Positions 13,280-33,540 are shown, numbered from the stretch's first letter. The stretch is DNA of 64,000 nucleotides from an uncultured Thermoleophilia bacterium (GCA_963765635.1 CAVXXF010000002.1:914411-978410); one strand, 5' to 3'. Translations and numbers: made by a program. The notes: generated by a model not told the origin, from the letters alone.

Positions 13280-15061
13280 CTACTCGCCGAAGGTCATCTC
13301 GCGCAGGAAGACCTCATGGAACCGGCTGTCCATGGCCAGTTCGCGGAACGTGATCTTCCTTCGGAGCTCGGCGATCCGCTCGCGCTGACGCACGTCGATC
13401 AAGGCCATCTGCGCGCCGACTCCGGCGGCGTTCCCCACGAAAGCGATGCGGTTCGTGGCGATTGGCGGAAGCAGCCCGATGGCCAGCGCGTTATCCAGAC
13501 CCAGGTAGTTGCCGAACGCCCCGGCGACGAAGACGTGACGCAGGTCCTGGGGCTCCAGGCCGGCGTTCGAGAGCAGCAGCGACCATCCGGCGGCAATCGC
13601 TCCCTTGGCCAGCTGGAGGGCCCGTACGTCGCGCTGCGTGAAGACGATCTCGCCCTGGGCGCCCTCCGCCACCAGATACTCGAGGCCGCGTGCGCCTCGG
13701 CGCACGCGTTCGTGGGCCTGCATCAGGCCCGATCTGTCGACGACCCCGGTGGCGAGTAGTCCGGCGAGGATATCGACGACCCCGGAGCCGCAGATCCCGA
13801 CCGGCTCGGCCCGGCCGATGGTCTGGATGTGCCTTGGCCGGCCATCGGTGGTGAAGTCGATGCGCTCGATGGCGCCCTCGGTAGCCTTCATGCCGCAGGT
13901 GATCTGATAGCCCTCGAAGGCCGGCCCCGATGCGCAGCTCGTCACCGATACTTTGCCGTCCTTGACCAGCGCGATCTCGGTGTTCGTGCCGATGTCGATG
14001 GCCATGGCCGGCAGGCGCTTCGCCTCGAGGTGCGTCGCCGCGATGACGGCCAGGCAGTCTGACCCAACGAAGCCGGCGATGGGCGGCATGAAGTAGATGC
14101 GCCCCTCGGGGTTCATGGTCACGCCCAGATCGGCGGCGCGCAGTGAGAGCGGTTCGTCGAGCGCCGGCGCGAACGGAGCACCCGTCAACCCCAGGGGCGA
14201 CAGCCCCAGCGCCAGATGGTGCATCGCCGTGTTGCCCACGATCACCATGTCGTACACGTGCTGCGCGGAGATCTCCTGGCGAACGCAGAGCGTCGCGAGT
14301 ACCTCGTTGATGCCCTCTGCGGCAAGACGCGTGAGCTCGAGCAGCGCTGCTTCATCCAGAGCCTCGGTGATCCGCGAGATCACGTCCTCACCGTAACGCA
14401 TCTGCGGATTCTCGATGGCCTCCTGGTCGATCAGGTGGCCTTCCTGAAGGTCCATGAGGTAGACGATGATCTTGGACGTGCCGATGTCGACGGCGGCCCC
14501 GTAGGCGCTCAGGCCGACGTGCCTCGGCTCGATGTCGATGAGGCATCCTTCGTACATCGTGGTGGTGACCGAGAAGCGGCCGTCACGCAGGGACACGGGA
14601 AGCTTGCGCAGCACCGACAGAGGCAGAGCGGTGGCGCCCAGCTCCTCCCGCACACGCTCGCGGTCGCTGCGCGCGTCCTCGAACGTGGCGCGAGGTAGCG
14701 TGGCAGCTTGCCTGCCGACCGCGGACCGGGCCTCGCCGTGCGTGAGCTTCGAGGCCGTGAGGATCTGCCGGCGACCCGCGGTCTCGCGCACCTCGACGCT
14801 GACGCGCGCCGAGAGCGGCATGGCCTGACACGCAAGGCGCCAGCCCTCGGCGCGCTGCTCAGGCGTCAGCTTGCTCAGCTCGACGCTTGTCGGAGGGCTG
14901 AGCTCTCCCGCTCCCAAACGTACCCGGCACTTGCCGCACGTCCCCCGGCCGGCGCAGTCGACAGGCAGGCCTACGGCCGCACTCGATACGGCCGCCAGCA
15001 GCGTGTCGCCGGCGGCGACCTCGACGGTGACGCCGATGGGCTCAACAAGGACCTTGAACAC
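13280..15061 (-). CDS. corrinoid activation/regeneration protein (RamA/RACo-like: N-terminal 2Fe-2S ferredoxin + ASKHA ATPase, DUF4445)
   Basis: N-terminal plant-type ferredoxin CxxGxCGxC motif (CAGRGTCGKCRV), long ATPase domain. GTG start at 15061 with RBS AAGAGG. Divergent from mtmB. Confidence 0.75.
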   Translation of the reverse strand: MFKVLVEPIGVTVEVAAGDTLLAAVSSAAVGLPVDCAGRGTCGKCRVRLGAGELSPPTSVELSKLTPEQRAEGWRLACQAMPLSARVSVEVRETAGRRQILTASKLTHGEARSAVGRQAATLPRATFEDARSDRERVREELGATALPLSVLRKLPVSLRDGRFSVTTTMYEGCLIDIEPRHVGLSAYGAAVDIGTSKIIVYLMDLQEGHLIDQEAIENPQMRYGEDVISRITEALDEAALLELTRLAAEGINEVLATLCVRQEISAQHVYDMVIVGNTAMHHLALGLSPLGLTGAPFAPALDEPLSLRAADLGVTMNPEGRIYFMPPIAGFVGSDCLAVIAATHLEAKRLPAMAIDIGTNTEIALVKDGKVSVTSCASGPAFEGYQITCGMKATEGAIERIDFTTDGRPRHIQTIGRAEPVGICGSGVVDILAGLLATGVVDRSGLMQAHERVRRGARGLEYLVAEGAQGEIVFTQRDVRALQLAKGAIAAGWSLLLSNAGLEPQDLRHVFVAGAFGNYLGLDNALAIGLLPPIATNRIAFVGNAAGVGAQMALIDVRQRERIAELRRKITFRELAMDSRFHEVFLREMTFGE

Positions 15062-15266
15062 TGGTGCACCTCTTTCCGGGCGGGGCGAGAGCCTGGCTCT
15101 CGACGAGCGATGGCATGCGATCCTCGCTATGTATCTCACAAGGTCTGTGGATGCTGCAACGGCGGGCCCCTGGGAGTGGCGGCTGCCTGCACGACGTGCG
15201 GCCCTTCGCCGACCACTGCGGGGAGCCTGTGGAATCACCGCACCATGTTGGACAAACGGCAGTCTC

Positions 15267-15437: not shown

Positions 15438-16847
15438 ATGGCTGGACCTGGGACCAAAGCCCAGCGCGAGCGCATGTCGGTCTTCGAGGCGTACGAGAGG
15501 GCCCGCAAGGGGCCAAAGGTCGATGAGGCGGTCTGGAACTTCGAGACCATCCCGCAGACGGCCACACGCCTCAAGGAGAAGTACGGGATCAAGATGGACA
15601 AGAGCGTCATGGTCCCCACTGATCCCGAGATGATGAAGAAGCTCTATCAGGCCGGTCTCGAGATGCTCGTCGAATGCGGCGTGTACTGCATCTCCACCGG
15701 ACGCGTCATCAAGTGGACCGAAGAAGAGGTCCTTCTCAACCTCGCCACAGCGCCGAAGGAATGCGTGATCGGCGAGGGACTCCACTCCCGCCGAATGTTC
15801 CCGCGCTCGCACAAAGACACGCGTCCGCCGCTCGTCCAGGGCGGCCCCACTGGCGCGCCCTGCAGCGAAGAGCACTTCTTCGGCATCCACGAGTCATACG
15901 TCAAAGAGGGTATCGTCGACTGCATCGTCGACGGGGTGCTCTCCACGGTCAACGGCTATAACCCGGCTCCGGACACCCCGTGGGAGGTCCTCGCCGGTCG
16001 CCAGGAGATCATGATGGTCCGCATGGCGCAAGCCAAGTGCGGCCGCCTGGGGATGGGTTTGTAGGGCCCAGAGACCACTCTGAACGCTGCTGCCACGATC
16101 TCTCAGGATTTCGTGGGCGGCATGCGGAAATCAGACAACCACGAAGTCTCGCAGTTGAATGAGCTGAAGTGCGACATAGGCGCGTTGACCTTCACTTCTC
16201 ATTACAATCTCGCTGCCGACGTCGTGATGGTCGAGCAGATGCCAATCTTCGGTGGTTTTGCCGGTGGTCTCGAGGAGACGACCATCGTCAACGTCGCCAC
16301 GCATCTCAACTCTTTCGTCACGTTCGGTGGTACTTGGCACCTTGATGGTCCGGTGCACATGCGCTGGGGGATCACGACGACCAGGGAGGCCCTGGCCATC
16401 GCCGGTCACGCCATCATGGCGGTCAACTCCGTCTGGCCGAGCCTCATGAGCGGCAATCAGTACTACACGATGGCCGGTCCGTGTACGGTCATGTGCCTGC
16501 TGGAGACCGCCGCCCAGGCGATCACCGACACCTCCAGTGGTCGCGAGATCATGTCCGGCGTCGCCGCCGCCAAGGGCGTCATCACCGACAAGACCACAGG
16601 CATGGAGGCGCGGTTCATGGGCGAGTGCGCTCACGCCGTGGCCGGCATGCCTACCCAGCAGACCAACGAGATCCTCGATGCCCTCGTCAAGATGTACGAG
16701 GGCGACTACAAGACCGCCGACCAAGGCAAGTTCTACCCAGAGTGCTACGACACGGTCAAAGTCGTCCCGACCGACGAGTACCTCGAGGTCTACGACAAGG
16801 CCTGCGCCGCCATGAAGGGTCTCGGCGTCAACTACAAGCTGTGGTAG
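15438..16847 (+). CDS. mtmB: monomethylamine:corrinoid methyltransferase with in-frame UAG (predicted pyrrolysine) at 16062-16064
   Basis: The two track ORFs (15438-16064 and 16113-16847) are in the same frame, separated only by TAG. The flanks GRLGMGL*GPETTLN align to the Methanosarcina MtmB pyrrolysine site (GRPGMGV-O-GPETSLS). Strong identity elsewhere (KLYQAGLEMLVECGVYC, HEVSQLNELK). Confidence 0.8.
16062..16064 (+). other. in-frame amber codon in mtmB, predicted pyrrolysine
   Basis: TAG sits at the conserved pyrrolysine position, and the reading frame is conserved across it. Confidence 0.75.
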
Positions 16848-16895: not shown

Positions 16896-17543
16896 ATGGG
16901 AAATGAGGCGTTCTACAAAGAGGCGATCGACTCTCTCGTGAACCACGACAAGGTCGTGGCAGAAGACGTGGCCAAGCGTGCCATTGCTGCCGGCGTCAGC
17001 CCGCAGGAGATCATGCAGAACGGGTTCGTCGTTGGCATCCGCCAGGTCGGTGACCAGTTCGACGAGGGCGAGGTCTACCTGCCCGAGCTCATGCTGGCGG
17101 CGGCGGCGATGGAAGCCGCGATGGCGATCTGCAACGCAGCTCTGCCCGAGGGCGAGAGCGAGACGCGTGGCGTCGTCGTCATCGGCACCGTCGAAGGCGA
17201 CGTCCACGACATCGGCAAGGCCATCGTCTGCGCGTATCTGCGGGCGAACGGCTACGACGTTCACGACCTCGGTCGCGACGTGCCGGTGGATGCGTTCGTC
17301 GACAAGGCCGAGGAGGTCAACGCCGACATTATCGGCGCCAGCGCTCTGCTCACGGCGACCATGCGCAAGCAGGCCGAGATCCTGGCCGAGCTCGACGACC
17401 GGGGCATCCGCGACAAGTACAAGTTCGTGGTCGGCGGCGCGCCGTGTACGCAGGAGTACGCGGACTCCATCGGCGCCGACGCCTACGCCGCGGACGCCAG
17501 CGACGGCGTCAAGAAGATCGAGAAGATGCTGGGCATCAAGTAA
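16896..17543 (+). CDS. mtmC: monomethylamine corrinoid protein (B12-binding)
   Basis: DxHxxG cobalamin-binding motif (GDVHDIGK), MtmC-like N-terminal helical domain. RBS GGAGG. Confidence 0.8.
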   Translation: MGNEAFYKEAIDSLVNHDKVVAEDVAKRAIAAGVSPQEIMQNGFVVGIRQVGDQFDEGEVYLPELMLAAAAMEAAMAICNAALPEGESETRGVVVIGTVEGDVHDIGKAIVCAYLRANGYDVHDLGRDVPVDAFVDKAEEVNADIIGASALLTATMRKQAEILAELDDRGIRDKYKFVVGGAPCTQEYADSIGADAYAADASDGVKKIEKMLGIK

Positions 17544-18797: not shown

Positions 18798-18986
18798 ATG
18801 GTATGGATCAATTACGCCGCCTGGGCGCTGTCCATCCTTTTCCTGGGGTGGACGATCGTCGACGCATTCCGCATTGAGACCACCTACGACCATGACCTCC
18901 TCGTCAGTTCCGTCGAGGGTGAGATCGAGAAGGAGATCCTCGATCACGCGCACCCGGCAACTCCACCGGCCCAGTCGGGCGACTGA
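18798..18986 (+). CDS. 62-aa single-TM protein
   Basis: ATG 6 nt after the previous stop. Its stop overlaps the start of the permease (TGATG). Confidence 0.35.
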   Translation: MVWINYAAWALSILFLGWTIVDAFRIETTYDHDLLVSSVEGEIEKEILDHAHPATPPAQSGD

Positions 18987-20404
18987 TGGCCACCGAGCAA
19001 GTGGCCGTTCCGTCCGGCGCGGCCGCTCAGCCACAGCGCCTCAGCCTGCTTCGTGTGCTCGGGCCCATGCACGTTTGGGCTCTCGGCGTCGGCATCGTGC
19101 TCGTCGGCGAGTTCATGGGCTGGAACTTCACCGTGGCCAAAGGCGGCGTCTTCGGCGCCCTCGTGGCCTGCTGGTTCTCCGGCATTCTCTACTCCTGCGT
19201 GGCCATGATCGACTCCGAAGTGAGCTCCACCGTGGCCTCGGCAGGCGGGCAGTACGCCCAGGCCAAGCACATCCTCGGCCCTCTCGCGGCCTTCAACATC
19301 GCGCTGTTCATCATCTTCGAGTACTGCATGCTTGCGGCCGGCGACGCCCTCGTCATCGGAGCCATCGTCAACAGCCTCGACCCGGCTCTCAGCCCGGTGG
19401 CGTTCGTGGTGCTCTCGATTGCGTTTCTGGCGTGGCTGAACTATCGGGGCGTGCACACCACATTGACGTTCAACTTCGTCATCACGGCCCTCGCCTTCAT
19501 CACGATCCTCGTGCTGATCGTCGGCGCGGAGTTCTGGAACCCCGGCCACATCACGCAAACTCAGGCGCTGTTCGCGCAGCCTCCAGGCGGCGTCGATCCC
19601 AAGATGCCGTACGGCTGGCTGGGCATCCTCGCCGCGCTGCAGTTCGGCATCTGGTACTACCTCGGCATCGAGGGCACCTGTCAGACGGCCGAAGAGTGTC
19701 GCTCAGCGCCGCGGGCGTTGCCGGTCGGTACCATGTCCGGCCTCATCACTCTGCTGGTGGCCGCCACGCTCACCTGGTACATCTGCACCGCCCTGGTCAA
19801 CTGGATCACGCTGGGCGAGTCGCTCTACCCGCTCTACGACGCGGCCGTCAACACCGGCAAGGACTACTTGAAGGTCATCCTGTGGATCGGCACGGTGCTC
19901 AGTTGTCTCGCATCCGCCAACGGCTGCATCAACGACGCCTCACGGGCGTGGTTCGCCATGGGCCGCGACCAGTTCATCCCCCGGTGGTTTGGCGGTGTGC
20001 ACCCACGCTACAAGACGCCGTACCGCGCGATCCTTTTCCTCGTCCCGATCATGATCGCGTTCGGCTACACCGGGCTGCTCGACCAGGTGATCACCTTCTC
20101 GATCATCTCCGGCTGCCTGATCTACCTCATCATGCCTCTCAACATGATCCGCTTTCGCCGTCTGTACCCGATGGACTCGATCAGACGCGGCTATGTGTCC
20201 CCGTTCCATCCGCTGCCGTCGTACGTGCTGTTCGCCTTCGTGTCGTTGACGTTCCTGGCCATATACTTCGGCTTCTGGCGCAACCTCGTGGCAGCGATCG
20301 TGTTCTACAGCCTCTGCTCGGTGTGGTTCGTCCTTCACCGTTTCAAGTACGTGGACCGTGCCAAGCTCTATACGATGCCGTGGCCACGGCCCAAGGGCTA
20401 CTGA
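18986..20404 (+). CDS. APC-superfamily permease (ethanolamine/amine permease-like), candidate methylamine transporter
   Basis: 12-TM APC architecture. N-terminal LRVLGPMHVWALGVGIVLVGEFMGWNF resembles the EAT family. Confidence 0.7.
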   Translation: MATEQVAVPSGAAAQPQRLSLLRVLGPMHVWALGVGIVLVGEFMGWNFTVAKGGVFGALVACWFSGILYSCVAMIDSEVSSTVASAGGQYAQAKHILGPLAAFNIALFIIFEYCMLAAGDALVIGAIVNSLDPALSPVAFVVLSIAFLAWLNYRGVHTTLTFNFVITALAFITILVLIVGAEFWNPGHITQTQALFAQPPGGVDPKMPYGWLGILAALQFGIWYYLGIEGTCQTAEECRSAPRALPVGTMSGLITLLVAATLTWYICTALVNWITLGESLYPLYDAAVNTGKDYLKVILWIGTVLSCLASANGCINDASRAWFAMGRDQFIPRWFGGVHPRYKTPYRAILFLVPIMIAFGYTGLLDQVITFSIISGCLIYLIMPLNMIRFRRLYPMDSIRRGYVSPFHPLPSYVLFAFVSLTFLAIYFGFWRNLVAAIVFYSLCSVWFVLHRFKYVDRAKLYTMPWPRPKGY

Positions 20405-22303: not shown

Positions 22304-22646
22304 GGTGGCGCGCGGGGTCGGACGCGCTGGATCTGGCAGCACGACCCCGAGCGCCGGCGCGCGTGACGCGCTGCTGAGCGTTGACGGAAGGCCACCTCGT
22401 GGGTACATAATGCATGCTGACACGGTCACGGAGCGCAGCGGCTGTGTCAGTCGTCGAACCGCGGCCGGAAGCCCCGACCGCGGGGAAGAGGGGGGTTGAA
22501 GGCAACGATGCCGGAGGTCGTGAGTCGCACAGGGTGGTTGCTCGCGGACCTCAAGGCAGGGCTGCCTGTTGGTCGCGCCTCGCCGCGCTCCCCCCCGCGA
22601 CAGATCGCCCCACTGAGTTCTCTATACGAAACGGAGGTGTTACGCA

Positions 22647-24044
22647 GTGAGCAATGTATGGACCCGAATGGGTGACGGCCAGGCCGTCGTGATGACGAGC
22701 GACGAACTTCGCAAGGACATCATCGAGGCGTCCGAGGATGCCGCCGACAAGGGCAAAGTCCCGATTCTCGAAGACAACGAGATCGACAAGATGATGGAGA
22801 TCTTCACCGCTCCATGGCGTGTCATCGGTGTCGAGCCCGGCCACGAAGTACCCCTCACCAAGGATGAAACGGCGTGCACGCTGATCTCTTCGCAGCTGTC
22901 GAGCGGCTCGCACCTGCCCATCAGTCGCGAAGCCGCCGTCGAGATCTTCGAGCGCGTCTTCGCCTTCGACACCATGGAGCTGGGCTGGATCGACTACTCG
23001 TTCAAGCAGGCCAAGCCGATGGTCTCGCTCGACCAGGTCTCCATCGAGCGCCTTCTGGCGACCACGGTGTTCCCCATTCTCTACGGCGCGATGCCGAACA
23101 TGGGGCTCTACTACACGCCTGACGGGCCCTTCACCAACCCGGCCGACCTTCTCGGCATGATGAAGGTCGAAGAGGCGCGGGAGATGCAGATGAAGGCCTC
23201 CGAGCTCTGCGAGGAGGACATGATCTTCGTCTGCAAGCGTATGGCCGAGATCGGCGCCGACGGCATCGACTTCGACACCACCGCTTCGGCCGGTGACGCC
23301 GACTTCCTGGCCGTGCTCAAGACGGTCGAGGAGCTCAAGAAGACCACCAACCTCGGCATCGAGGTCGGCATGTCCGGCGAGTTCATCCTGGGCATGCACG
23401 GCGAGGTGGAGTACAAGGGCACGAAGCTCGCCGGCCTGTGGCCGCACCAGCAGCTCAAGGTCGTTGAGCAGGCGGGCGCGGACATGTTCGGTCCTGTCGT
23501 GAACACCAAGACCAACAAGTCGGCGGCCTGGAACGTCGCCCGCGCCGTGACCATGGTGAAGGAAGTGTGCAAGCAGGCCACGATCCCGATCCACGCCAAC
23601 GTGGGAATGGGCGTGGGTGGCACGCCGATGTTCGAGACGCCGCCTGTCGACGCTCTCAGCCGCGCAAGCGTCGCGATGGTCGAGATCGCCAAAGTCGACG
23701 GGTTGTAGGTGGGTGTGGGCGATCCCTTCGGGATGTCCCTTACGCACGCGATTGCCTCCGGAATGGGTGGCATTCGTACCGCTGGAGATCTGGTGGCGCG
23801 GATGCAGCTCAACTACAAGATGAGACTCCCTGAGGCCAAGAAGTACGTGGCGGACAAGCTTCACGTGAGTGCTTTTGACCTGTCGGACTCCACCGTGATG
23901 CGCCAACTGCGGGAAGAGCTTGACATCGGCCTCATCGAGGCCGTCCCCGGTATGGCCAAAGGCTTGGCGGCGAAGGACCACATCGCCAGGCTCCTGGACA
24001 TCAAGATCGATTGCGTGGAGAAGCTCAAGGAGAAGCTCGCCTGA
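22647..24044 (+). CDS. mtbB: dimethylamine:corrinoid methyltransferase with in-frame UAG (predicted pyrrolysine) at 23706-23708
   Basis: The ORFs 22647-23708 and 23709-24044 share a frame across [21 protein letters not shown] aligns to the MtbB pyrrolysine site (VEIAGVDGI-O-IGVGDPLGM). Strong identity ([25 protein letters not shown]). Confidence 0.8.
23706..23708 (+). other. in-frame amber codon in mtbB, predicted pyrrolysine
   Basis: TAG at the conserved position with frame continuity. Confidence 0.75.
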
Positions 24045-24105: not shown

Positions 24106-24750
24106 ATGGCAAATGAAGACTTCTACACCGAAGCGATGGAGGCCATCCGCGCCTGCGACAGGGTCAAGGCCACCGATGTGGCTACCAGGGCTCTCGCGGC
24201 GGGCGTCGCTCCGGACGACCTGCTCAAGCTGGGCTTCATCCCCGGCATCGCGAAGATGGGCGACCTCTTCGAGCGCGGCGAGGTGTTCCTCCCCGAGCTC
24301 GTGCTCGCCGCGGACGCCATGACCGGCGCCGCCGAGGTGTGCAACGCGGCGCTGCCCGAGGGTGAGGGTGGCAAGAAAGCGGTCGTCGTCATCGGGACCG
24401 TGCAGGGCGACGTCCACGATATCGGCAAGACCATCGTCGTCGCCTTCCTGCGTGCCAACGGCTACGACGTCACCGATCTCGGCCGCGATATCTCCGGTGA
24501 CAAGTTCATCGCCGCAGCTGAGGAGCTCAACGCCGACGTCATCGGCATGAGCGCGCTGCTCACCACGACCATGCGTGAGCAGACCCGCGTGATCGAGGCC
24601 CTCAAGGCCGCCGGTGTACGCGACAAATACAAGGTCATCGTCGGCGGCGGCGCCTGCACGGAGCAGTGGGCCACCAAGATCGAGGCCGATGCCTACGCAG
24701 AAGACGCCAACGACGGCGTGCGCAAGATCAACCAGCTCACGGGCAATTGA
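24106..24750 (+). CDS. mtbC: dimethylamine corrinoid protein (B12-binding)
   Basis: GDVHDIGK motif; paralogous to mtmC. Confidence 0.8.
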   Translation: MANEDFYTEAMEAIRACDRVKATDVATRALAAGVAPDDLLKLGFIPGIAKMGDLFERGEVFLPELVLAADAMTGAAEVCNAALPEGEGGKKAVVVIGTVQGDVHDIGKTIVVAFLRANGYDVTDLGRDISGDKFIAAAEELNADVIGMSALLTTTMREQTRVIEALKAAGVRDKYKVIVGGGACTEQWATKIEADAYAEDANDGVRKINQLTGN

Positions 24751-25006: not shown

Positions 25007-25462
25007 CTATTCCTTGGCCGGGACCACCAAGACCGGTACGTGGGCCGTATGCAGCAGTGCCTGGGTCGTGGATCCGAGCACGGTGGTCGCCTCAGAGGCG
25101 CCGGCGCCTTTGGCGCCGACGACGATCATGTCGGCATCGACCTCACGCGCCACGGTGACCACGATCGCCGCCGGATTCCCGCGGCTGCAGGCGGTGCCCG
25201 CCTCGATCCCGACGGCCCGCACCGTCTGAGCCGCCTCCTCGAGATCGGCGTTGATCTTGTCCTCCATCTGGTCCCAATGCTTCTCCATCTCCATCGCCGC
25301 CTGCCACAACGGCTCATAGCCGAGCCAGCCAGGGCGACGGTCGTGGCCGCAGGTGATGAAGATCTTGCTCCCTGGCCTGTCCTTGGCCAAGCCGATGGCC
25401 GCGTCCAAGGCGTTCTTGGCCGCCTTGGAGCCGTCATATCCGACCACGAAGGTGTTCGCCAT
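25007..25462 (-). CDS. universal stress protein UspA
   Basis: UspA signature. Confidence 0.75.
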   Translation of the reverse strand: MANTFVVGYDGSKAAKNALDAAIGLAKDRPGSKIFITCGHDRRPGWLGYEPLWQAAMEMEKHWDQMEDKINADLEEAAQTVRAVGIEAGTACSRGNPAAIVVTVAREVDADMIVVGAKGAGASEATTVLGSTTQALLHTAHVPVLVVPAKE

Positions 25463-25614
25463 GCCGCACGCTCCTCTCTCAGTGCAATTGACCGGCCGGC
25501 GCGCCGCCGACCGGAAAGGACAGCCTCAGCCGTGCCCATCGATTCGGGTGGGGCATGCGTCCGCGACAAGGTCGCGGACGCATGCCCCGGACAGGCCTGC
25601 GGCCATCCTGTTGA

Positions 25615-27225
25615 TCAGTACGTCTCACGCACCCCAGCGAAGAACACTTCGTGGTCGTCCACCGGCTCCGCGGAGACGGCGTCGAGCTGCTCTTGCGACG
25701 GCGGCTTGGTGAGGAAGGTCACGACTACGAGCGTGACGAAGGCGAGGATCACGCCGATGACCGCGAAGCCATAGCCGGTATCGATCAGCGCCTGCGGAGC
25801 CGGGTAGTCGTACTCCAGCACGTACTTCTCGACGAGGTAGAACACCAGCGTCCCGACCCCGCCGACCAGAGACGCGGTAAACGCGGCCGCGTAGCCGACC
25901 CGCTTCCAGAACATGGCCAGCACCGCCACGGCGACGCCGGCCGAGAGCAGGCCGCTGGAGAAGTAGTAGGCGTCCCACAGGGCGTTCGGCAGCGTGTCGA
26001 TGAGGAACGTCACGCCGAGGGTCACGATAACGGTGACCAGCGACGCGATCCGGCTGAAGAACACGATGCGCGCGTCGCCCCAGCCGCGCTTGCGGTAGAC
26101 GAGCGGCTGCAGGACATCGTAGCTGGCGTTCAGGGCCGACACGTTGGTGAACGTGGCGATGGTGGCGATGGCGTGGGCCGCCAGCAGACAGAACGTGATC
26201 ACCAGCAGCCACGGCGGGAAGTACTCGGTGAGGAACACCGGCATGAGCTGGTAGGGGTCGCCTCCGAGCAGATTCTGGAACTGCTCGGGCGGATAGAGCA
26301 CGAGGCCAAAGAGGCCGATGAGGCTCGGCAGCGCGAGGATCCAGATGATGTTGTAGACGAGGTTGGCCCAGATGCCGTTCCGTGCCGCGCGAGTGCTGGT
26401 GGCCGACTGTGCCTTGAGCCACCAGTCTTCCTCGATCATCCACCCGGGAAGGAGTGCTATGAGCGAGAAGAAAGCGAACGGTATGCCGAGACTGAACAAG
26501 GTCATGGCGCTTTGGCCCGGTGCGTTGCCCGGCGGGACCACATTCGAGAGGTAATTGAGCATGCTCTGCCCCTCGGGCAGATGGTTGAACGACTCATAGG
26601 TCATCACGATGGTGACGATGGTGACGAACGCCACGCCCATGGCGAACTGCAGCAGGTTGGCACTGATGACCGCGTGGAAGCCGCCCAGCGCCATGTACAC
26701 CGCGACCGGCACCGCGAAGACGATGTACAACACCCAGGGTTCGACGCCAAATGAAGGCGCGAGGTACTGCGACACCGTCCAGATCTCGGCGGCCGACCAG
26801 ATGACGAAGGCGATGATGTTGAACGGGCTGACCAGCACGCGGAGACCTAGCCCGAAGCGCTGCTGCAGGCATTGCGGCTGCGAGATCGCCTTGAAGCGTC
26901 GCACGTTGGGCACCAGGATGACCATGGTGAACAGCAGCACGGTCCATGGGACGACCATGGACCAGATGCCGCCGATGCCATACATGTAGGTATTGGCCAT
27001 GGCCCAGGTGATGAAGCCGATCAGGAACCAGCCGGCGGCGATGGCGCAGCCGACGACCAGGGCGCTGTTGCTGCGTTTGGCGATCCAGTAGTCGTCGTGC
27101 TCGTCGGTGGCTGTCTTCTGCTTCTTCTGGAAGTTGTAGGTCCAGACGCCGATCCCGATGAGCACGAACATGTACGGGATGACGATCGCCCAGTACCAGA
27201 TAGGACTGGCTGCAGCTATGATCAT
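25615..27225 (-). CDS. sodium:solute symporter (SSS) family transporter
   Basis: 13-TM SSS-like architecture, 536 aa. Confidence 0.7.
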   Translation of the reverse strand: MIIAAASPIWYWAIVIPYMFVLIGIGVWTYNFQKKQKTATDEHDDYWIAKRSNSALVVGCAIAAGWFLIGFITWAMANTYMYGIGGIWSMVVPWTVLLFTMVILVPNVRRFKAISQPQCLQQRFGLGLRVLVSPFNIIAFVIWSAAEIWTVSQYLAPSFGVEPWVLYIVFAVPVAVYMALGGFHAVISANLLQFAMGVAFVTIVTIVMTYESFNHLPEGQSMLNYLSNVVPPGNAPGQSAMTLFSLGIPFAFFSLIALLPGWMIEEDWWLKAQSATSTRAARNGIWANLVYNIIWILALPSLIGLFGLVLYPPEQFQNLLGGDPYQLMPVFLTEYFPPWLLVITFCLLAAHAIATIATFTNVSALNASYDVLQPLVYRKRGWGDARIVFFSRIASLVTVIVTLGVTFLIDTLPNALWDAYYFSSGLLSAGVAVAVLAMFWKRVGYAAAFTASLVGGVGTLVFYLVEKYVLEYDYPAPQALIDTGYGFAVIGVILAFVTLVVVTFLTKPPSQEQLDAVSAEPVDDHEVFFAGVRETY

Positions 27226-27623: not shown

Positions 27624-28499
27624 TCACTTCTCACGCACCCACCGTCTGTAGATTCGAGCCGCCCGCCGGTCCATGTCAAGCGTGATGTCGACACCGTCGC
27701 GTTCAAGCGCCTCCGCGGCGCCCGGGACGCGCGCGCGACGCAGGCAGATGAGTGCGCTGAGCAGGAGGCTCCGCCGACGTTTGTCCTCGGAGCGCAGTGA
27801 TTCCTCGATGATCGGGACGACGTCGCCACGAAGCTCCGCCATCCCCAGTGAGAGAAGGGCTGCCACTGCGACTCCGCCGAACTGGGGCGCGACCTCGATG
27901 ACGTGTCGCACGCCCGCGAAACGCATGCCGTTGACGCTCAGGCGTGCCTCCATACGTTCTCTGTGGACCCGCGAGTACATCCGTATGAAGGTGCTGTTGC
28001 CATCATCACGCTCGGTGCTGGCCTTCATGCGCGCGAGCTGACGGTCTATCTCCTCGTTTCGTAGGCGGCCCAACAGCTCGACCCTCTCGGCCATGCGAGT
28101 GGCGGGCTCGGCAAGGTCGGGAGCCTCTTCGCCGGCCGCGATCGCGCGCAGCAGCTCGTGCGCGGCCGGCAGATCGCGGTATCGAGCGTAAAGATAGACG
28201 GCATGAAGGGCGCCCTGGCGGCGTAACTCCTCGTCCGACCCCAGCTGGGCGGCGATCGCCGGGAATGTCTCCTCACCAAGCTCGACGAGCACGGCGCCCG
28301 CACTGCGCTGCCACTGCTCATCGCCCAGCAAGTCCATCAGGGCGGTCTGGCCACCACCACCCAGCGACTCTAAGGCGACCCGAGCGGCGTGACGCTTGTC
28401 ACGCCGCTTCGCGGATTCAAAGGCTTCGATCAGTCCGGTGACATCGCCGGCGTCTCGCATGGCCGCGATCTTGTCCCCGCTCGACAACCGCTTAGGCAT
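27624..28499 (-). CDS. HEAT-repeat (PBS-lyase-like) protein
   Basis: Repeated alpha-helical pairs. ATG at 28499 preceded by GGGAGGA; the longer track ORF was rejected. Confidence 0.5.
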   Translation of the reverse strand: MPKRLSSGDKIAAMRDAGDVTGLIEAFESAKRRDKRHAARVALESLGGGGQTALMDLLGDEQWQRSAGAVLVELGEETFPAIAAQLGSDEELRRQGALHAVYLYARYRDLPAAHELLRAIAAGEEAPDLAEPATRMAERVELLGRLRNEEIDRQLARMKASTERDDGNSTFIRMYSRVHRERMEARLSVNGMRFAGVRHVIEVAPQFGGVAVAALLSLGMAELRGDVVPIIEESLRSEDKRRRSLLLSALICLRRARVPGAAEALERDGVDITLDMDRRAARIYRRWVREK

Positions 28500-28721
28500 A
28501 TGGTCCTCCCTCGCGCGCCTCGATCCCCAGGTCCAGCGTGATGGCGCGACCACAGGGTATATGTACTCGAGGGGACAGGCCAGTGCACGAGGCATGCAGG
28601 TGAGCCTGACCGGATACGGGGATGCGCACTGCGACCCTTTACGTACCCTGCCCTCGTCGCCGGCCGCTCGATCGTGCAGGCTCACACTGGGGGCGAGCGC
28701 CTCACTCGCCCGCTGGCGGCA

Positions 28722-29048
28722 TCAACCGCCGGAGATCGCCACGAGCGCGTCTTTGGGGAACGCCAGCTCCGCGGCCACGCGCATCGCCTTCAGCGCCGAA
28801 GCCGGCACGATGCAGTCGGTGCAGCAGCGGCCCTCACGGCCCGCGGCGAGCACGGTGTTCTCGCTGCGGGGATCGATCTCCTTGTAGGCGTCGAGTGGCG
28901 ACCGTTCGGCGAGCAGCGCCGCAAACCGGGTCACGTTGTCGCAGTCGGTCTCGAGAACGATGCTCACGGCACGGCCGTCACTCGTCTCGGCGCGCGCGAG
29001 CGTACGAAAGCCACAGATGCCGGGCTGGATATCCGCCTCTGCTTGCAT
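28722..29048 (-). CDS. hypothetical 108-aa Cys-containing protein (C12, C36, CCxxC)
   Basis: ORF with an 18-bp perfect palindrome 35 bp upstream; no family recognised. Confidence 0.35.
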   Translation of the reverse strand: MQAEADIQPGICGFRTLARAETSDGRAVSIVLETDCDNVTRFAALLAERSPLDAYKEIDPRSENTVLAAGREGRCCTDCIVPASALKAMRVAAELAFPKDALVAISGG

Positions 29049-29329: not shown

Positions 29330-30805
29330 TTGATCCGAAGTCAACGGTCAGGCATCAATCACCAGGGCGGCATCGGCATCGATGTCTTCTCCGCAGACGA
29401 GCGGCAGGCCATCCACTGGGGCACCGTCGAGGTGCTCGAGAGGGCCGGCATCTGGGTGGAGGATGACGAGGCCCTCGACCTGTTCGCCGACGGCGGCTGC
29501 AAGGTCGACCGCTCCACGCGCAAGGTCAGGATCCCGCAGCACGTGCTCGAGGAGTGCATCGGCTGGGCGCCCTCCACGGTCACGCTCTGCGGCCGCACGC
29601 CCGACAAGGACCTCATCATGGAGGGCCGGCGCGTCGCCTTCACCAACTTCGCCGAGGGCGTCAAGGCCGTGGATCCCTGGGACGGCAAGCTGCGCCCCAC
29701 CACGAAGAAGGACGTCGGCGATCTCGCCCGCCTCGTCGACGCGCTCGACGACATCGAGGTTTACACGATCGCCGTGACGGCTACCGACGTGCCGCCCGAG
29801 GTCGCCGAGGCACATCTCATCGAGCAGTCGCTGCTCAACACCACGAAGCCGATCTGCAGCCTGGCCCTCGGCCACCACGGCGCTCGCCTGCACATCGACG
29901 CCACGGCCGCCGTGGCCGGCGGCCACGACAAGCTGGCCGAGCGCCCCATGCTCCTCTTCCTCTCCTGCCCGGTCAGCCCGCTCAAGCTCATGGGCGAGTT
30001 CACCGGCTGCATCATCGAGGCGGCCCGCGCCCATCAGGTCGCGATGCCCCTCTCCATGGCCATGTCCGGCGGCTCCGCCCCGGTCACCCTGGCCGGCACC
30101 ATGGTCACGCATAACGCCGAGGTGCTGAGCGGCATCGTCCTCGCCCAGCTCGCCGAGAAGGGCGCCAAGTGCGTCTACGGCACCTCCACCACCGCCTTCG
30201 ACCTGCAGCGCGCTGCTGCGACCGTGGGCACCCCCGAGCTCGGCATGATCAGCGCGGCCGTCGCGGAGATGGGCCGCTACTACGGCCTGCCGACCTACGG
30301 CGCCGGGTTGTAGAGCGATTCCAAGCTCGGCGGCGACGCGCAGTGCGCCCACGAGAAGACCATCACCGGCCTCCTGCCAGCGTTGGGAGGGCTCAACCTG
30401 ATCTACGGAGCCGGGATGATCGAGTCGGGCGTCACCATCGACTACGCAACGCTCGTCATGGACAACGATATCGCGCGCATCTGTAAGTTCATCCTTCGTG
30501 GCATCCCCACGAACGACGCGACGCTGATGGTGGATGAGATCGTCGAAGTGGGGTCCGAGGAGGACTTCCTTTCGAGGATGAGCACCCTGAAGCTGATGCG
30601 TGAACACCAGTCCAAGGCCGGGAACATCGACCGCCGCGTGCGCGAAGAGTGGGAGATGGACGGCAGCACCGATATGTACACCCGCTGCGGCGAGGTGGCC
30701 AAGGAGCTCGTCGCCGGCCACAAGGTCGCGGAGCTCCCGAGCGAGATCGTCGATCAGATCCACGCCATCGTCGTTAAGGCCGAGAAGGATGCCGGAGTCG
30801 CCTGA
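29330..30805 (+). CDS. mttB: trimethylamine:corrinoid methyltransferase with in-frame UAG (predicted pyrrolysine) at 30311-30313
   Basis: The ORFs 29330-30313 and 30383-30805 share a frame across TAG. LPTYGAGL*SDSKLGGDAQCAHEKT aligns to the MttB pyrrolysine site ([24 protein letters not shown]). Possible TTG start after AAAGGAGGA. Confidence 0.8.
30311..30313 (+). other. in-frame amber codon in mttB, predicted pyrrolysine
   Basis: TAG at the conserved position with frame continuity. Confidence 0.75.
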
Positions 30806-30853: not shown

Positions 30854-31483
30854 ATGGCAGATTTTGAGACTCTCAAGAAGATGATCATCGACGGTGCCGA
30901 CGGCGCCACCGCCGAGACGCAGAAGCTGATCGACGGCGGTGCCTCGGCCCGTGACATCCTCGACCAGGCCCTGTTGCCCGGTATGGACGTTGTCGGCGCC
31001 GAGATGAAGAGCGGCGACAAGTTCATCCCCGAGGTGCTGCTCAGCGCTCGCACCATGCAGGCCTGCCTCGACCTCATCAAGCCGCACCTCGCGGCCGGTG
31101 AGACGATGAGCCTCGGCACGGTCGTGATCGGCACCGTCGAGGGCGACATGCACGATATCGGCAAGAACCTCGCCGCCATGCTGCTCTCGGGCGCCGGCTT
31201 CGAGGTCGTCAATCTGGGCAAGGGCGTCACGCCGGCCGACTTCGTGACCGCGGTCAAGGAGAACAAGGCGACGATCCTCGGCATGAGCGGCTTGCTCACG
31301 ACGACGATCCCGAAGATGCCCGAGACCATAGCCGCGCTCAAGGCCGCCGGTCTGCGCGACAGCGTCAAGGTCATCGTCGGCGGCGCGCCCGTGAGCGTCG
31401 AGTGGGCCGACGAGATCGGCGCCGACGCCTATGCGGCCAACGCCTCGCTGGGCGTCGAGAAGTGCAAGGAGCTGGTCTCCTAG
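30854..31483 (+). CDS. mttC: trimethylamine corrinoid protein (B12-binding)
   Basis: GDMHDIGK motif. TAG stop with an in-frame TGA four codons later. Confidence 0.8.
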   Translation: MADFETLKKMIIDGADGATAETQKLIDGGASARDILDQALLPGMDVVGAEMKSGDKFIPEVLLSARTMQACLDLIKPHLAAGETMSLGTVVIGTVEGDMHDIGKNLAAMLLSGAGFEVVNLGKGVTPADFVTAVKENKATILGMSGLLTTTIPKMPETIAALKAAGLRDSVKVIVGGAPVSVEWADEIGADAYAANASLGVEKCKELVS

Positions 31484-31708: not shown

Positions 31709-31887
31709 GGTGTAGAAGCGGCTTGTCGCGTTCGCGGACGCGGCAGTGAGGGGGGAGCCAGAGGATCACTCATGTGGGGCTGTTCGCGCCGAGCCCAAGT
31801 CGCCGGAAGTCCGGGGCCCCGGCATGCGCGGGCGCTGACGTCAGAACGCACCTTGTACCCTTAATAATCGCAGAAGGGGGCAACGGT

Positions 31888-33540
31888 ATGGAGGATCAAG
31901 ACCGCTCTCAGTCAGACATGATTCGGTCTGACGTTTCGGATAAGTACCTCGCCGACTACGGCGACGAGTACAAGCAATCACGCTTCCAAACCAACATGCG
32001 CCGAGACCTCAGCTGGGTCGGCGCCTTCTTCGTGGCCGCCGGCGTGCCGGCGCTGATCCTGTTCTCGATGGGTGGCATCTCCGCCGGCACCGGGCCGGTC
32101 GCCGTACTTGTATGGACGCTTTCAGTGCTGGTCGGCTTCGTCGACGCCTTCATCTACGCCGAGATCGCCGGGCTCCACCCGAAGAAGTCGGGTGGCACCG
32201 CGGTGCACGGCGCGACTGCCTGGATCCGCTACATCAGGCCCGCGGCGCCGATCTCGCTGTGGTGCAACTGGCTGGCATGGACACCGGTGCTGGCGCTCGG
32301 CTCCGGTCTCTGCGCGGGGTATCTGCTCTCTGTCTTCTTCGCCCCCGACGCCACCATCAACACGTGGTCGGTCACGATCGCCAATCTCGATTTCTTGAAG
32401 GATGGGCTGACGCTGCGCATCAACGCGGTATTCATCATCGGCGCCGTCATCATGCTCGCCGTGTGGAATATCCAGCACTACGGCATCCTGCGCACCGCGC
32501 GCGTCCAGATGATCCTCACGATCGGGGCGATGACGCCCTTGATCCTGCTGACGGTCATCCCGCTGATCACCGGCGACGTGGTGGCGAGCAACTTCTCGCC
32601 GTTCGTGCCGGTCAACGGCTCGTGGAACCTCGACGGCTGGACGGCGTTCCTGGGAGGCTTCTTCATCGCCGCTTGGTCCGCCTACGCCTTCGAGACGGCC
32701 ATCTGCTACATGAGCGAGTTCAAGAACCCCGGGCGCGACCAGGCCAAGGCCATTCTCTGGTCCGGCGTGTTCTGCATCTTGTGCTACACCGTGATCCCGT
32801 TCGTTTGGCAGGGCGTCCTCGGCACCGACTACATGCTCAAGCCCGAGATCTACTCGGGGGCCGGCGTTCCTCAGGGTTTCGCGGACATGTTCAACGCCGG
32901 CGCAACCTTCACCAAGTTCTGCGCGGTCGCCATGTTCTTCACGGTGATGCTGTCCGTGATGACGGCCATGTCGGGCTCGTCACGGACCCTCTTCCAGGGC
33001 GGTCAGGACGGCTGGCTGCCCAAGTACCTGGCGCACCTCAACAACCACAAGGTGCCGACCTACGCGATGTGGACCGACCTCATCTTCAACCTGTTCCTGC
33101 TGCTGATGTCGGACTACGTCTTCGTGCTCGCCGTCTCCAACTGCAACTACATGATCTTCAACTTCCTCAACCTGAACGCGGGCTGGATTCACCGCAGGGA
33201 CAACCCGCGCGTGCCGCGGCCCTTCAAGGCGCCGCTGCCGCTCTTCGTGCTTGGCACCTGCTTCGCCTACATGAACGTGTTCCTTCTGGGAGCCGGCGCG
33301 AACTACTGGGGCCAGGGCACGCTGCTCATGGGCTGGATCTCGGCCCTGATCGCCCTCCCGGTCTTCTACTACCGACACTACGTCACCGACAAGGGCAAGT
33401 TCCCGTCGCACATGTTCGACGACCTCATCCCCGAGGGCGAGACCGAACTGGGGCCCAAAAGGTGCGGCGTCCTGCCGTACGTCGCCGTCGCCGGCGGCCT
33501 GGCGTGCATGACCCTCGGCTACGTCATCTTCTGGGTCTGA
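31888..33540 (+). CDS. APC-superfamily permease (second copy), candidate methylamine transporter
   Basis: 12-TM APC architecture. ATG MEDQDRSQ... after a G-rich RBS; the longer upstream extension was rejected. Confidence 0.7.
   Translation: MEDQDRSQSDMIRSDVSDKYLADYGDEYKQSRFQTNMRRDLSWVGAFFVAAGVPALILFSMGGISAGTGPVAVLVWTLSVLVGFVDAFIYAEIAGLHPKKSGGTAVHGATAWIRYIRPAAPISLWCNWLAWTPVLALGSGLCAGYLLSVFFAPDATINTWSVTIANLDFLKDGLTLRINAVFIIGAVIMLAVWNIQHYGILRTARVQMILTIGAMTPLILLTVIPLITGDVVASNFSPFVPVNGSWNLDGWTAFLGGFFIAAWSAYAFETAICYMSEFKNPGRDQAKAILWSGVFCILCYTVIPFVWQGVLGTDYMLKPEIYSGAGVPQGFADMFNAGATFTKFCAVAMFFTVMLSVMTAMSGSSRTLFQGGQDGWLPKYLAHLNNHKVPTYAMWTDLIFNLFLLLMSDYVFVLAVSNCNYMIFNFLNLNAGWIHRRDNPRVPRPFKAPLPLFVLGTCFAYMNVFLLGAGANYWGQGTLLMGWISALIALPVFYYRHYVTDKGKFPSHMFDDLIPEGETELGPKRCGVLPYVAVAGGLACMTLGYVIFWV

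What the first reader, a model, noticed from the sequence alone, without database searches (positions are those of the whole stretch)
22647..24044. mtbB (dimethylamine methyltransferase) with an in-frame UAG at the Pyl site
Same pattern as mtmB. ORFs 22647-23708 and 23709-24044 are contiguous in one frame across TAG 23706-23708. The flanks VDGL / VGVGDP match the MtbB pyrrolysine-356 context. The cognate corrinoid protein mtbC follows immediately.
Basis: partly seen in the sequence, partly recalled or inferred. Interest (0 to 1): 0.85.

Follow-up and report, generated by a model that had tools for sequence, protein, structure and literature searches.

The report
Pyrrolysine-coding dimethylamine methyltransferase gene, actinobacterial
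This is a genuine dimethylamine methyltransferase gene (mtbB) whose single in-frame TAG sits exactly at the conserved pyrrolysine position; it is an ordinary member of a well-known family, notable only for lying in a high-GC actinobacterial (Thermoleophilia-like) chromosome where TAG is still a common stop codon.

Summary
Window 22647-23705, TAG 23706-23708 and 23709-24044 form one frame, and the joined 465-aa product matches the MtbB family end to end (Pfam PF09505, E 1e-198; NCBIfam TIGR02368, 552 bits against a cut-off of 369).

- **TAG position:** all 88 mtbB copies I collected carry TAG at this aligned column (DG[L/I]-TAG-[V/I/L]GxGDP). They come from Thermoleophilia, other Actinomycetota, Desulfobacterota, Firmicutes and cultured Methanococcoides. 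In a Methanosarcinaceae-type homologue the TAG is codon 356.
- **Translation past the TAG:** the 110 codons after it are under purifying selection (dN/dS 0.16-0.24). They also match Rfam PYLIS_2 (88 bits).
- **Neighbours:** a corrinoid protein gene follows 61 nt downstream. The gene lies in a ~22-kb island between recA-recX and rny, with mtmBC, mttBC, a RACo-type activase and three permeases.
- **What is missing:** there are no pyl genes and no tRNA-Pyl in the 64 kb. Class relatives carry pylT/Sn/Sc/B/C/D. TAG ends 14 of 46 window genes.
- **Prior knowledge:** Pyl-encoding mtbB in Actinobacteriota has already been reported.

The parts
22647..24044 (+). mtbB, dimethylamine:corrinoid methyltransferase. 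It is a single 465-codon reading frame (GTG start, TGA stop) with one internal TAG.
22633..22637 (+). Shine-Dalgarno-like GGAGG, 9 nt upstream of the GTG start.
   Evidence: Read directly from the sequence.
23706..23708 (+). In-frame TAG (codon 354), the pyrrolysine codon.
   Evidence: TAG at the same aligned column in 88/88 mtbB copies; it equals codon 356 of a Methanosarcinaceae-type MtbB; homologues called as proteins all end at this column.
23709..24041 (+). Post-TAG coding segment (111 codons) that completes the MtbB fold.
   Evidence: dN/dS 0.16-0.24 against four orthologues at 88-92% identity, with no indels; 57-74% amino-acid identity to distant copies, higher than for the N-terminal part.
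23706..23805 (+). Match to Rfam RF02509 (PYLIS_2, 'pyrrolysine insertion sequence mtbB'). This marks a conserved sequence context; a functional RNA structure is not shown.
   Evidence: 87.7 bits (gathering score 36), model positions 1-100/100, starting at the TAG. Single-sequence fold z = -1.8. RNAalifold covariation term is only -0.59 kcal/mol.
24106..24750 (+). mtbC-like cognate corrinoid (B12-binding) protein, 214 aa.
   Evidence: PF02607 + PF02310. TIGR02370, 208.1 bits (cut-off 215.3), and MtbC model NF041607, 206.8 bits (cut-off 350). This is family-level membership, just under both cut-offs.
15438..16847 (+). mtmB (monomethylamine methyltransferase) with in-frame TAG at 16062-16064. Its own terminal stop is also TAG, with a back-up TGA 5 codons later.
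   Evidence: (PF05369, E 5e-196), and 51 (PYLIS_1, 49.4 bits, below the gathering score of 70).
16896..17543 (+). mtmC-like corrinoid protein.
   Evidence: TIGR02370, 227.7 bits, above the cut-off.
29330..30805 (+). mttB (trimethylamine methyltransferase) with in-frame TAG at 30311-30313. The start codon is uncertain.
   Evidence: PF06253; TIGR02369, 607.9 bits, cut-off 525; PYLIS_3, 49.8 bits, gathering score 38.
30854..31483 (+). mttC-like corrinoid protein.
13280..15238 (-). RACo/AcsV-type corrinoid reductive activase (2Fe-2S ferredoxin domain plus ASKHA domains). It is the presumed re-activator of the Co(II) corrinoid proteins.
   Evidence: PF00111, PF17650, PF17651, PF14574. NF040756, 393 bits, below its cut-off of 800.
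31774..33540 (+). APC-family permease that matches the 'trimethylamine N-oxide permease' model. A likely methylamine/TMAO importer.
   Evidence: NF053774, 764 bits, cut-off 690. The same family lies next to mtbC-mtbB in Thermoleophilia FR_37.
18986..20404 (+). APC-family permease (ethanolamine-permease-like), between mtmBC and mtbBC.
25615..27225 (-). Sodium:solute symporter family transporter, downstream of mtbC.

Best explanation
Window 22647-24044 is a functional mtbB gene of a high-GC actinobacterium, most likely of the class Thermoleophilia.

**Decoding (inferred).** The UAG at codon 354 is decoded as pyrrolysine by Pyl-tRNA(CUA), in competition with release factor 1. The product is a ~50-kDa TIM-barrel enzyme.

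**Catalysis (from established knowledge of the family).** Pyrrolysine binds and activates dimethylamine, so that a methyl group passes to the Co(I) corrinoid of the adjacent MtbC.

**Pathway (inferred from gene content).** With mttBC and mtmBC in the same island, the cell can strip methyl groups stepwise from trimethylamine to ammonia. The RACo-type activase re-reduces oxidised corrinoid, and the permeases import the amines.

**Missing components (inferred).** The methyl-corrinoid acceptor enzyme (MT2) and pylTSBCD must be encoded outside the window. Because TAG also ends about 30% of genes here, decoding is ambiguous rather than reassigned. Read-through probably depends on how strongly the pyl genes are expressed, as shown for Acetohalobium and Methanosarcina.

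**Shown here:** family membership, TAG at the Pyl column, selection on the post-TAG segment, the cognate partners, and pyl operons in class relatives.
**Inferred:** Pyl insertion in this organism, the substrate, and the regulation.
For: - **Family membership across the TAG:** full-length matches.
- **TAG at the Pyl column:** 88/88 copies, including cultured Pyl-using Methanococcoides alaskense and M. vulcani. It equals codon 356 of a Methanosarcinaceae-type MtbB.
- **Gene-caller truncation:** callers cut nearly all homologues at 353 aa, the same column.
- **Selection after the TAG:** dN/dS 0.16-0.24, against 0.10-0.12 upstream, with no indels, in four orthologues.
- **Rfam PYLIS families:** hits start exactly at each of the three TAGs.
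- **Partners:** corrinoid proteins and an activase are adjacent.
- **Synteny:** the island has the same gene order in Thermoleophilia MAG loci L043, L004 and L005.
- **Pyl machinery in relatives:** tRNA-Pyl in Actinomycetota loci L019, L021 and L022. pylSn-pylSc-pylB-pylC follow pylT in L021. pylSc-B-C-D lie beside mtbC-mtbB in Thermoleophilia FR_37. NCBI already names PylD in Thermoleophilia MAGs.
- **Fold:** a TIM barrel most like the corrinoid-dependent methyltransferase modules.
- **Literature:** amber codons in M. barkeri mtbB are translated as Pyl (PMC9842639). Actinobacteriota MAGs express Pyl-encoding mtbB and mttB (PMC10805028). UAG has a dual meaning in Pyl users (PMC12626013).
Against: - **No Pyl machinery in the window:** no pylT, pylS, pylB, pylC or pylD in the 64 kb. 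I could not show them elsewhere in this genome: two PylD searches found none linkable to it.
- **No MT2 gene in the window**.
- **TAG is not depleted:** it ends 14 of 46 genes, including recA, rny, dapB and miaA, some with long potential read-through. That is above the 1-27% range reported for Pyl-positive archaea, so constitutive efficient suppression would be costly.
- **MtbC scores just under its curated cut-offs**.
- **Taxonomy is indirect:** the assignment rests on the island's nearest relatives plus actinobacterial synteny, not on a marker-gene phylogeny.
Confidence: 0.88

Rival explanations
1. Termination only. TAG 23706 is a real stop, the gene makes a 353-aa truncated protein (or is a pseudogene), and the downstream 111 codons are untranslated remnants.
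For: TAG is a frequent genuine stop in this window (14/46 genes). No pyl genes are in the window. Gene callers annotate it this way. An open run of 111 codons has about a 5% chance at this GC content (hand estimate).
Against: The post-TAG segment is under purifying selection (dN/dS 0.16-0.24, no indels). It is more conserved than the N-terminal part across phyla. It is required for the full-length family profile. The TAG is conserved in 88/88 copies, which fits a functional codon rather than decay.
Confidence: 0.03
2. Split gene. Two polypeptides are made, with translation re-initiating at the GTG (23709) immediately after the TAG, and they assemble into the enzyme.
For: The codon after the TAG is GTG, a possible start, and the ORF listing reports 23709-24044 as an ORF.
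Against: In other copies the codon after the TAG is ATA, ATC, ATT, GTA or CTG. ATA/ATC in the Methanosarcinaceae copies, GTA in three bacterial copies and CTG in L060 are not among ATG/GTG/TTG, yet the arrangement is identical. The junction never has a spacer or an overlap in 88 copies. In M. barkeri the amber codon is translated into one polypeptide (PMC9842639).
Confidence: 0.02
3. Read-through without pyrrolysine. This lineage has lost, or never had, pyl genes. The UAG is then suppressed at low level by a near-cognate or other suppressor tRNA, giving an enzyme with a canonical residue, or the island is a recently acquired and not yet functional cassette.
For: pyl genes were not found in the window or in the 10-kb flanks of the closest orthologues L003, L004, L005 and L043. 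The island has lower GC than its flanks. A natural non-Pyl MtbB homologue with Leu at the column exists (P0048).
Against: Three different genes in the island each keep TAG at their own Pyl site. The same island keeps them in at least four related species under purifying selection. That is hard to explain without an efficient, specific decoder. Class relatives carry complete pyl operons. Only 64 kb of this genome was examined.
Confidence: 0.06
4. Sequencing or assembly error created the TAG.
For: The window does contain at least one apparent frameshift (miaB, about 38360-38394), so the assembly may not be error-free.
Against: Independent metagenome contigs L001, L002 and L082-L084 carry the same TAG, as does every homologue examined.
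Confidence: 0.01

Closest known systems
Methanosarcina barkeri MtbB1-3 and Methanosarcinaceae MtbB (dimethylamine:corrinoid methyltransferase, Pyl-356)
   Same: It belongs to the same Pfam and TIGRFAM family over the full length. It has a single in-frame TAG at the same column (VDGI-O-IGVGDP against VDGL-O-VGVGDP). It is paired with a cognate corrinoid protein gene. Identity is about 51% to the Methanosarcinaceae-type P0025, and 51-61% to Methanococcoides copies.
   Different: The host is a high-GC bacterium rather than a methanogen. There is no mtbA (CoM methyltransferase) context and no archaeal RamA; the activase is of the bacterial RACo type. TAG is about 30% of stops here, against a median of about 5% in Pyl-positive archaea. 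In the window the gene order is mtbB then mtbC, whereas L088 has the corrinoid gene upstream.
Bacterial Pyl-dependent methylamine methyltransferase systems (Acetohalobium arabaticum, Desulfitobacterium, Thermincola, Bilophila wadsworthia, the Olavius delta-1 symbiont)
   Same: These are non-methanogenic bacteria with mttB/mtbB/mtmB carrying TAG at the Pyl site. TAG is retained as a normal stop, so decoding is ambiguous or conditional (PMC7593587; PMC1976440, listed). Thermincola and Peptococcaceae copies are 55-59% identical.
   Different: Those genomes usually have pylTSBCD next to a methyltransferase gene, whereas here none lies within 64 kb. The phylum differs (Actinomycetota). All three methylamine pairs lie in one ~22-kb island between recA-recX and rny.
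Pyl-encoding mtbB/mttB of Actinobacteriota MAGs from Stordalen Mire (Ellenbogen et al. 2023, PMC10805028) and Thermoleophilia MAGs in GTDB
   Same: They share the phylum, and probably the class. The nearest MtbB copies are Thermoleophilia MAGs at 88-92% identity, with the same island gene order. 'bog_752' and 'fen_672' MAGs are among the hits. Expression of such genes has been reported.
   Different: This particular locus has not been described individually. Databases hold it only as a 353-aa truncated call plus an 80-109-aa fragment.
Non-Pyl MtbB homologue (P0048, GCA_016278615.1)
   Same: It belongs to the same family and is full length, at 48% identity.
   Different: It has a sense TTG (Leu) at the Pyl column, sits in a 35% GC genome, and has no adjacent corrinoid gene. 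The window gene has TAG, so it is not of this kind.

Membership tests
MtbB, dimethylamine:corrinoid methyltransferase (PF09505 / TIGR02368) | Full-length match to the family profile, above the curated cut-off | tested here: met
   PF09505: 660.8 bits (cut-off 25), profile 5-462/463. TIGR02368 equivalog: 552.5 bits (cut-off 369.1), 7-464/466.
MtbB, dimethylamine:corrinoid methyltransferase (PF09505 / TIGR02368) | A single in-frame UAG at the conserved pyrrolysine column (Pyl-356 in Methanosarcina numbering) | tested here: met
   The TAG is aligned in 88/88 copies, including cultured Methanococcoides. It is codon 356 in the Methanosarcinaceae-type L088/P0025, and the alignment is A1. That Pyl-356 is the M. 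barkeri MtbB1 numbering comes from my own knowledge; I could not read the primary paper.
MtbB, dimethylamine:corrinoid methyltransferase (PF09505 / TIGR02368) | The sequence after the UAG is translated (conserved as protein) | tested here: met
   dN/dS is 0.16-0.24 over 110 codons against four orthologues, with no indels. Identity to distant copies is 57-74%.
MtbB, dimethylamine:corrinoid methyltransferase (PF09505 / TIGR02368) | A cognate corrinoid protein (MtbC) is encoded next to it | tested here: met
   24106-24750, 61 nt downstream. It carries B12-binding_2 plus B12-binding domains. TIGR02370 scores 208.1 against a cut-off of 215.3, and NF041607 scores 206.8 against 350. Both are just under or under their cut-offs, so the specific 'MtbC' name is by position.
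MtbB, dimethylamine:corrinoid methyltransferase (PF09505 / TIGR02368) | TIM-barrel methyltransferase fold | tested here: met
MtbB, dimethylamine:corrinoid methyltransferase (PF09505 / TIGR02368) | Dimethylamine-specific methyl transfer to Co(I)-MtbC | not testable with these tools
   This needs biochemistry.
Pyrrolysine genetic-code expansion system | tRNA-Pyl(CUA), PylS and PylBCD in the same genome | tested here: inconclusive
   All are absent from the 64-kb window. They are present in class and phylum relatives: L019, L021 and L022 have pylT; L021 has pylSn/Sc/B/C; Thermoleophilia FR_37 has pylSc/B/C/D.
Pyrrolysine genetic-code expansion system | Pyl residue actually incorporated at the UAG | not testable with these tools
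   This needs mass spectrometry of the protein.
Rfam PYLIS_2 (RF02509) | Match above the gathering score, starting at the UAG | tested here: met
   87.7 bits against 36, model 1-100/100, at 23706-23805.
Rfam PYLIS_2 (RF02509) | Conserved RNA secondary structure supported by covariation | tested here: inconclusive
   On 25 sequences RNAalifold gives two short hairpins. The covariation term is -0.59 kcal/mol, and only 2 of 15 pairs have compensatory changes. The single-sequence z-score is -1.8. Conservation is explained at least as well by the coding constraint (GDPx[10 protein letters not shown]).

The most novel reading that the evidence does not exclude
A free-living Thermoleophilia lineage (Actinomycetota) runs the complete pyrrolysine-dependent trimethylamine -> dimethylamine -> monomethylamine -> ammonia demethylation pathway from one chromosomal island. 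It does so while keeping TAG as about 30% of its stop codons, including on recA, rny and dapB, and with the pyl operon unlinked from the methyltransferase genes. It would therefore need a conditional, substrate-induced switch of the meaning of UAG, in a phylum where code expansion has not been studied experimentally.
Probability: 0.45. Interest if true: 0.45.

Novelty: new member of a known kind. Interest (0 to 1): 0.25.

Why it matters
For annotation, the gene should be called as one 465-codon CDS with Pyl at codon 354. Public gene calls currently split it into a 353-aa protein and a fragment.

Biologically, it adds a clean, syntenic example of all three Pyl-dependent methylamine methyltransferases in Thermoleophilia-like Actinomycetota. 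These bacteria may compete with methylotrophic methanogens for methylamines; the only environmental indications here are the peatland study and MAG names such as 'bog_752' and 'fen_672'. It is also a case where UAG must keep two meanings at high TAG usage.

None of this changes current understanding of pyrrolysine.

Tried and rejected
1. **Solved structures.** A PDB sequence search with MtbB returned no relative at E <= 1, so no direct structural comparison of the Pyl site was possible.
2. **Locating pyl genes in this genome.**
   - I searched with Thermoleophilia PylD, first alone and then as an 18-sequence profile. I looked for a hit on the 1,251,329-bp contig that carries the identical MtbB N-terminal part. 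None was found.
   - Exact look-ups of the window's YajQ and DapL are not on record. The window is therefore not that contig, and the approach could not have worked.
   - The 1.25-Mb record itself was never returned by the look-up of encoding contigs.
3. **pyl genes near the closest orthologues.** I ran tblastn with the L021 Pyl proteins against all loci. None lies within 10 kb of L003, L004, L005 or L043, or of their paralogue loci L009, L028, L031 and L047.
4. **A functional PYLIS hairpin.** Single-sequence folding and the RNAalifold consensus give only weak support. I do not claim an RNA element, despite the strong Rfam hit.
5. **First AlphaFold run.** With a 12-sequence alignment it gave pLDDT 57 and was discarded. 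A 99-sequence alignment gave pLDDT 85.
   - Foldseek against the PDB returned only generic TIM barrels.
6. **Primary paper.** Paul et al. 2000 (PMC111316) is not held.
7. **Back-up stops.** I considered whether they are enriched after TAG-terminated island genes. The sample is too small to test.

Full report
**1. The observation**

Translating window 22647-24044 on the + strand gives 353 codons, a single stop (TAG 23706-23708), 111 further codons and a TGA. The ORF list shows the two pieces as contiguous ORFs in one frame. A GGAGG lies 9 nt before the GTG start.

The window is about 64-72% G+C, and such DNA has long open frames everywhere. From base composition I estimate about a 5% chance that 111 codons stay open after a stop, so ORF continuity on its own proves little.

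Homology settles it:
- The joined 465-aa product matches Pfam PF09505 (Dimeth_Pyl) in one stretch over profile positions 5-462 of 463, E 1.2e-198.
- It also matches the NCBIfam equivalog TIGR02368 at 552.5 bits against a cut-off of 369.1.

**2. Is the TAG at the pyrrolysine column?**

Yes, on three lines of evidence.

- *Protein databases.* Nearly all of the 120 best homologues among 5.8 billion proteins are 353 aa long. In an alignment they all end at the same ...DGL as the window's N-terminal piece. Gene callers therefore stop at the same column in all of them.
- *DNA of 79 GTDB species-representative loci.* A scan returned loci from Thermoleophilia and other Actinomycetota, Desulfobacterota, Firmicutes and Methanosarcinaceae, including cultured Methanococcoides alaskense DSM 17273 and M. 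vulcani. Including extra copies and metagenome contigs, 88 of 88 mtbB copies have TAG at the aligned column. The context is DG[L/I]-TAG-[V/I/L]GxGDP, followed by 102-120 in-frame codons.
- *Numbering.* One 'full-length' database protein, P0025, shows Q at that position. In its DNA (L088) the codon is TAG, and it is codon 356 of a Methanosarcinaceae-type 468-aa MtbB. That the number belongs to M. barkeri MtbB1 is from my own knowledge, because the primary paper was not available.

**3. Is the part after the TAG translated?**

I compared the window with four orthologues at 88-92% protein identity (L003, L004, L005, L043).

| Segment | dN/dS |
|---|---|
| 110 codons after the TAG | 0.16-0.24 |
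| 353 codons before the TAG | 0.10-0.12 |

There are no indels. Across phyla the post-TAG part is more conserved (57-74% identity) than the N-terminal part (48-64%). This is incompatible with an untranslated remnant.

Rfam's curated PYLIS families hit exactly at the three TAGs of the window:
- RF02509 (mtbB) at 23706-23805, 87.7 bits (gathering score 36).
- RF02510 (mttB) at 30311-30413, 49.8 bits (gathering score 38).
- RF01982 at 16062-16161, 49.4 bits, below its gathering score of 70.

I read these as recognition of the conserved sequence context, not as proof of an RNA element:
- The single-sequence fold has z = -1.8.
- A 25-sequence RNAalifold consensus has a covariation term of only -0.59 kcal/mol.
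- The literature says a PYLIS is not required for Pyl insertion (PMC3639795; PMC12626013).

**4. Surroundings**

The window is a bacterial chromosome with gene order typical of actinobacteria. It reads dapB, dapA, rnj, ftsK..., pgsA, cinA, recA, recX, then an island, then rny, miaB..., miaA, dapF, dapL, hflX..., proS.

The island runs from 13280 to about 35900 and is slightly less G+C-rich than its flanks. It holds:
- a RACo/AcsV-type corrinoid activase (minus strand);
- mtmB (TAG 16062-16064) and mtmC;
- two small membrane proteins;
- an APC permease;
- universal stress proteins;
- a glutaredoxin;
- mtbB and mtbC;
- a sodium:solute symporter;
- a DUF6951 protein;
- mttB (TAG 30311-30313) and mttC;
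- a permease that passes the NCBIfam 'trimethylamine N-oxide permease' model.

The corrinoid gene after mtbB starts 61 nt downstream. It scores just below the curated cut-offs of the cognate-corrinoid models, so 'mtbC' is a positional name.

The same island order occurs in the Thermoleophilia MAG loci L043, L004 and L005 at 72-88% nucleotide identity. There the symporter-usp block is inverted relative to the window.

**5. What is missing**

The window contains no pylS, pylB, pylC or pylD, no tRNA-Pyl, and no methyl-corrinoid acceptor (MT2) gene.

Relatives do have the machinery:
- ARAGORN finds tRNA-Pyl(CUA) next to mtbB in Actinomycetota loci L019, L021 and L022.
- L021 reads mtbB, mtaA-like, pylT, pylSn, pylSc, pylB, pylC.
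- Thermoleophilia FR_37, a 4.6-Mb contig, has pylSc-pylB-pylC-pylD beside an Lrp-type regulator, a permease and mtbC-mtbB.
- NCBI already names PylD in Thermoleophilia MAGs.

I could not reach the rest of this organism's genome. Whether it has pyl genes therefore remains inferred.

**6. Stop-codon usage**

Among 46 curated genes of the window, the terminal stops are TGA 31, TAG 14 and TAA 1. TAG ends recA, rny, dapB, miaA and dapL. For some of these, read-through would add 79-251 residues.

Pyl-positive archaea use TAG at a median of 5%, with a range of 1-27% (PMC12626013). UAG is therefore not reassigned here. It must carry two meanings, as in other Pyl bacteria (PMC7593587) and as demonstrated in Methanosarcina acetivorans.

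**7. Fold**

No MtbB structure exists. An AlphaFold model built on 99 sequences has pLDDT 85 and pTM 0.89, and is a TIM barrel. The first 12-sequence model was poor.

Codon 354 follows the last short beta element (residue 352), at the face where TIM-barrel active sites lie. Local confidence there is only 61-69, so this is a weak inference.

**8. Mechanism**

The best explanation (confidence 0.88) is a functional Pyl-encoding mtbB:
- Pyl-tRNA(CUA) competes with RF1 at UAG-354.
- The full-length enzyme uses pyrrolysine to bind and activate dimethylamine, and methylates Co(I)-MtbC.
- MttBC and MtmBC handle the steps before and after.
- The RACo-type protein re-reduces inactive Co(II).
- The permeases import substrates.
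- The methyl group then goes to an acceptor encoded elsewhere.

The catalytic role of Pyl and the translation of the amber codon are established for M. barkeri enzymes (PMC9842639). Their transfer to this organism is an inference.

The rivals are each disfavoured by the conservation data:
- termination only;
- split gene with re-initiation at the GTG after the TAG;
- read-through without Pyl;
- sequencing error.

The only one with real residual weight is that this lineage lacks pyl genes (0.06).

**9. Comparison and novelty**

The family, the Pyl site, the operon partner, the Rfam context and the occurrence in bacteria are all textbook.
- Expression of Pyl-encoding mtbB and mttB by Actinobacteriota MAGs has been reported from Stordalen Mire (PMC10805028), and MAGs from that study are among my hits.
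- Full-text searches found essentially nothing on pyrrolysine in Thermoleophilia specifically.
- This locus exists in databases only as truncated calls.

I therefore rate it a new member of a known kind, with interest 0.25. The modestly interesting angle is ambiguous UAG decoding at about 30% TAG stop usage, with the pyl operon unlinked from a three-enzyme island.

Noticed in passing
window 15438-16847 and 29330-30805: mtmB (TAG 16062-16064) and mttB (TAG 30311-30313) also carry a single in-frame TAG at their own Pyl sites, and each is followed by a corrinoid protein gene. mtmB's true terminal stop is also TAG, with a back-up TGA 5 codons later. mttC ends in TAG, with a TGA 4 codons later.
   Followed up: partly
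window 37739-39065: miaB appears frameshifted. The UPF0004 domain and Radical_SAM positions 2-59 are in the frame of 37739. Radical_SAM positions 59-166 and the TRAM domain are in the frame of 38148-39065, and the junction is near 38360-38394. This is either a real pseudogene or an indel error in the assembly. The LigB/AmmeMemoRadiSam-B-like ORF 39292-39891 also begins at profile position 81, so its N-terminus may be lost in the same way.
   Followed up: partly
L086 6001-7401 (NCBI GCA_016278615.1, contig JADQBM010000005.1): P0048 is a full-length MtbB-family protein with a sense TTG (Leu) at the pyrrolysine column. It lies in a 35% GC genome, has no adjacent corrinoid protein gene, and sits among regulators and AzlCD genes. 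It looks like a non-Pyl MtbB homologue of unknown substrate.
   Followed up: partly
whole window (46 curated genes): TAG is the terminal stop of 14 of 46 genes (30%), including recA, rny, dapB, miaA and dapL. Potential read-through extensions reach 251 codons. This is high for an organism presumed to decode UAG as Pyl (compare).
   Followed up: partly
window 13280-~35900: The methylamine genes form an island between recA-recX (11260-13255) and rny (36175-37707). Its G+C is 63-66%, against 68-72% in the flanks. The island is syntenic in Thermoleophilia MAG loci L043, L004 and L005, but there the symporter-usp block (25007-27225) is inverted, and the HEAT-like ORF 27624-28685 is not matched.
   Followed up: partly
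window 31774-33540; L034 7644-9215: An APC-family permease passes the NCBIfam 'trimethylamine N-oxide permease' model NF053774. It lies next to the Pyl methyltransferase genes both here and in Thermoleophilia FR_37. This suggests that TMAO or TMA uptake is coupled to the pathway.
   Followed up: no
L021 11387-16156; L034 1-3941: Actinomycetota and Thermoleophilia relatives carry compact pyl operons next to mtbB. L021 has mtaA-like, pylT, pylSn, pylSc, pylB and pylC. L034 has pylSc, pylB, pylC and pylD, then an Lrp/AsnC-type regulator. In L021 no pylD follows pylC; a membrane protein gene does.
   Followed up: partly
L088 1029-2435: The database protein P0025 shows glutamine at residue 356, but the DNA has TAG there. 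The gene caller evidently used a code in which TAG means Gln, so 'full-length' MtbB entries with Q at this position are annotation artefacts.
   Followed up: yes
window 28722-29048 (-), 27624-28685 (-), 34272-34889 (-): A small Cys-rich DUF6951 protein sits directly upstream of mttB on the opposite strand and is conserved in the relatives' islands. Two HEAT-like repeat ORFs in the island have no family match.
   Followed up: no
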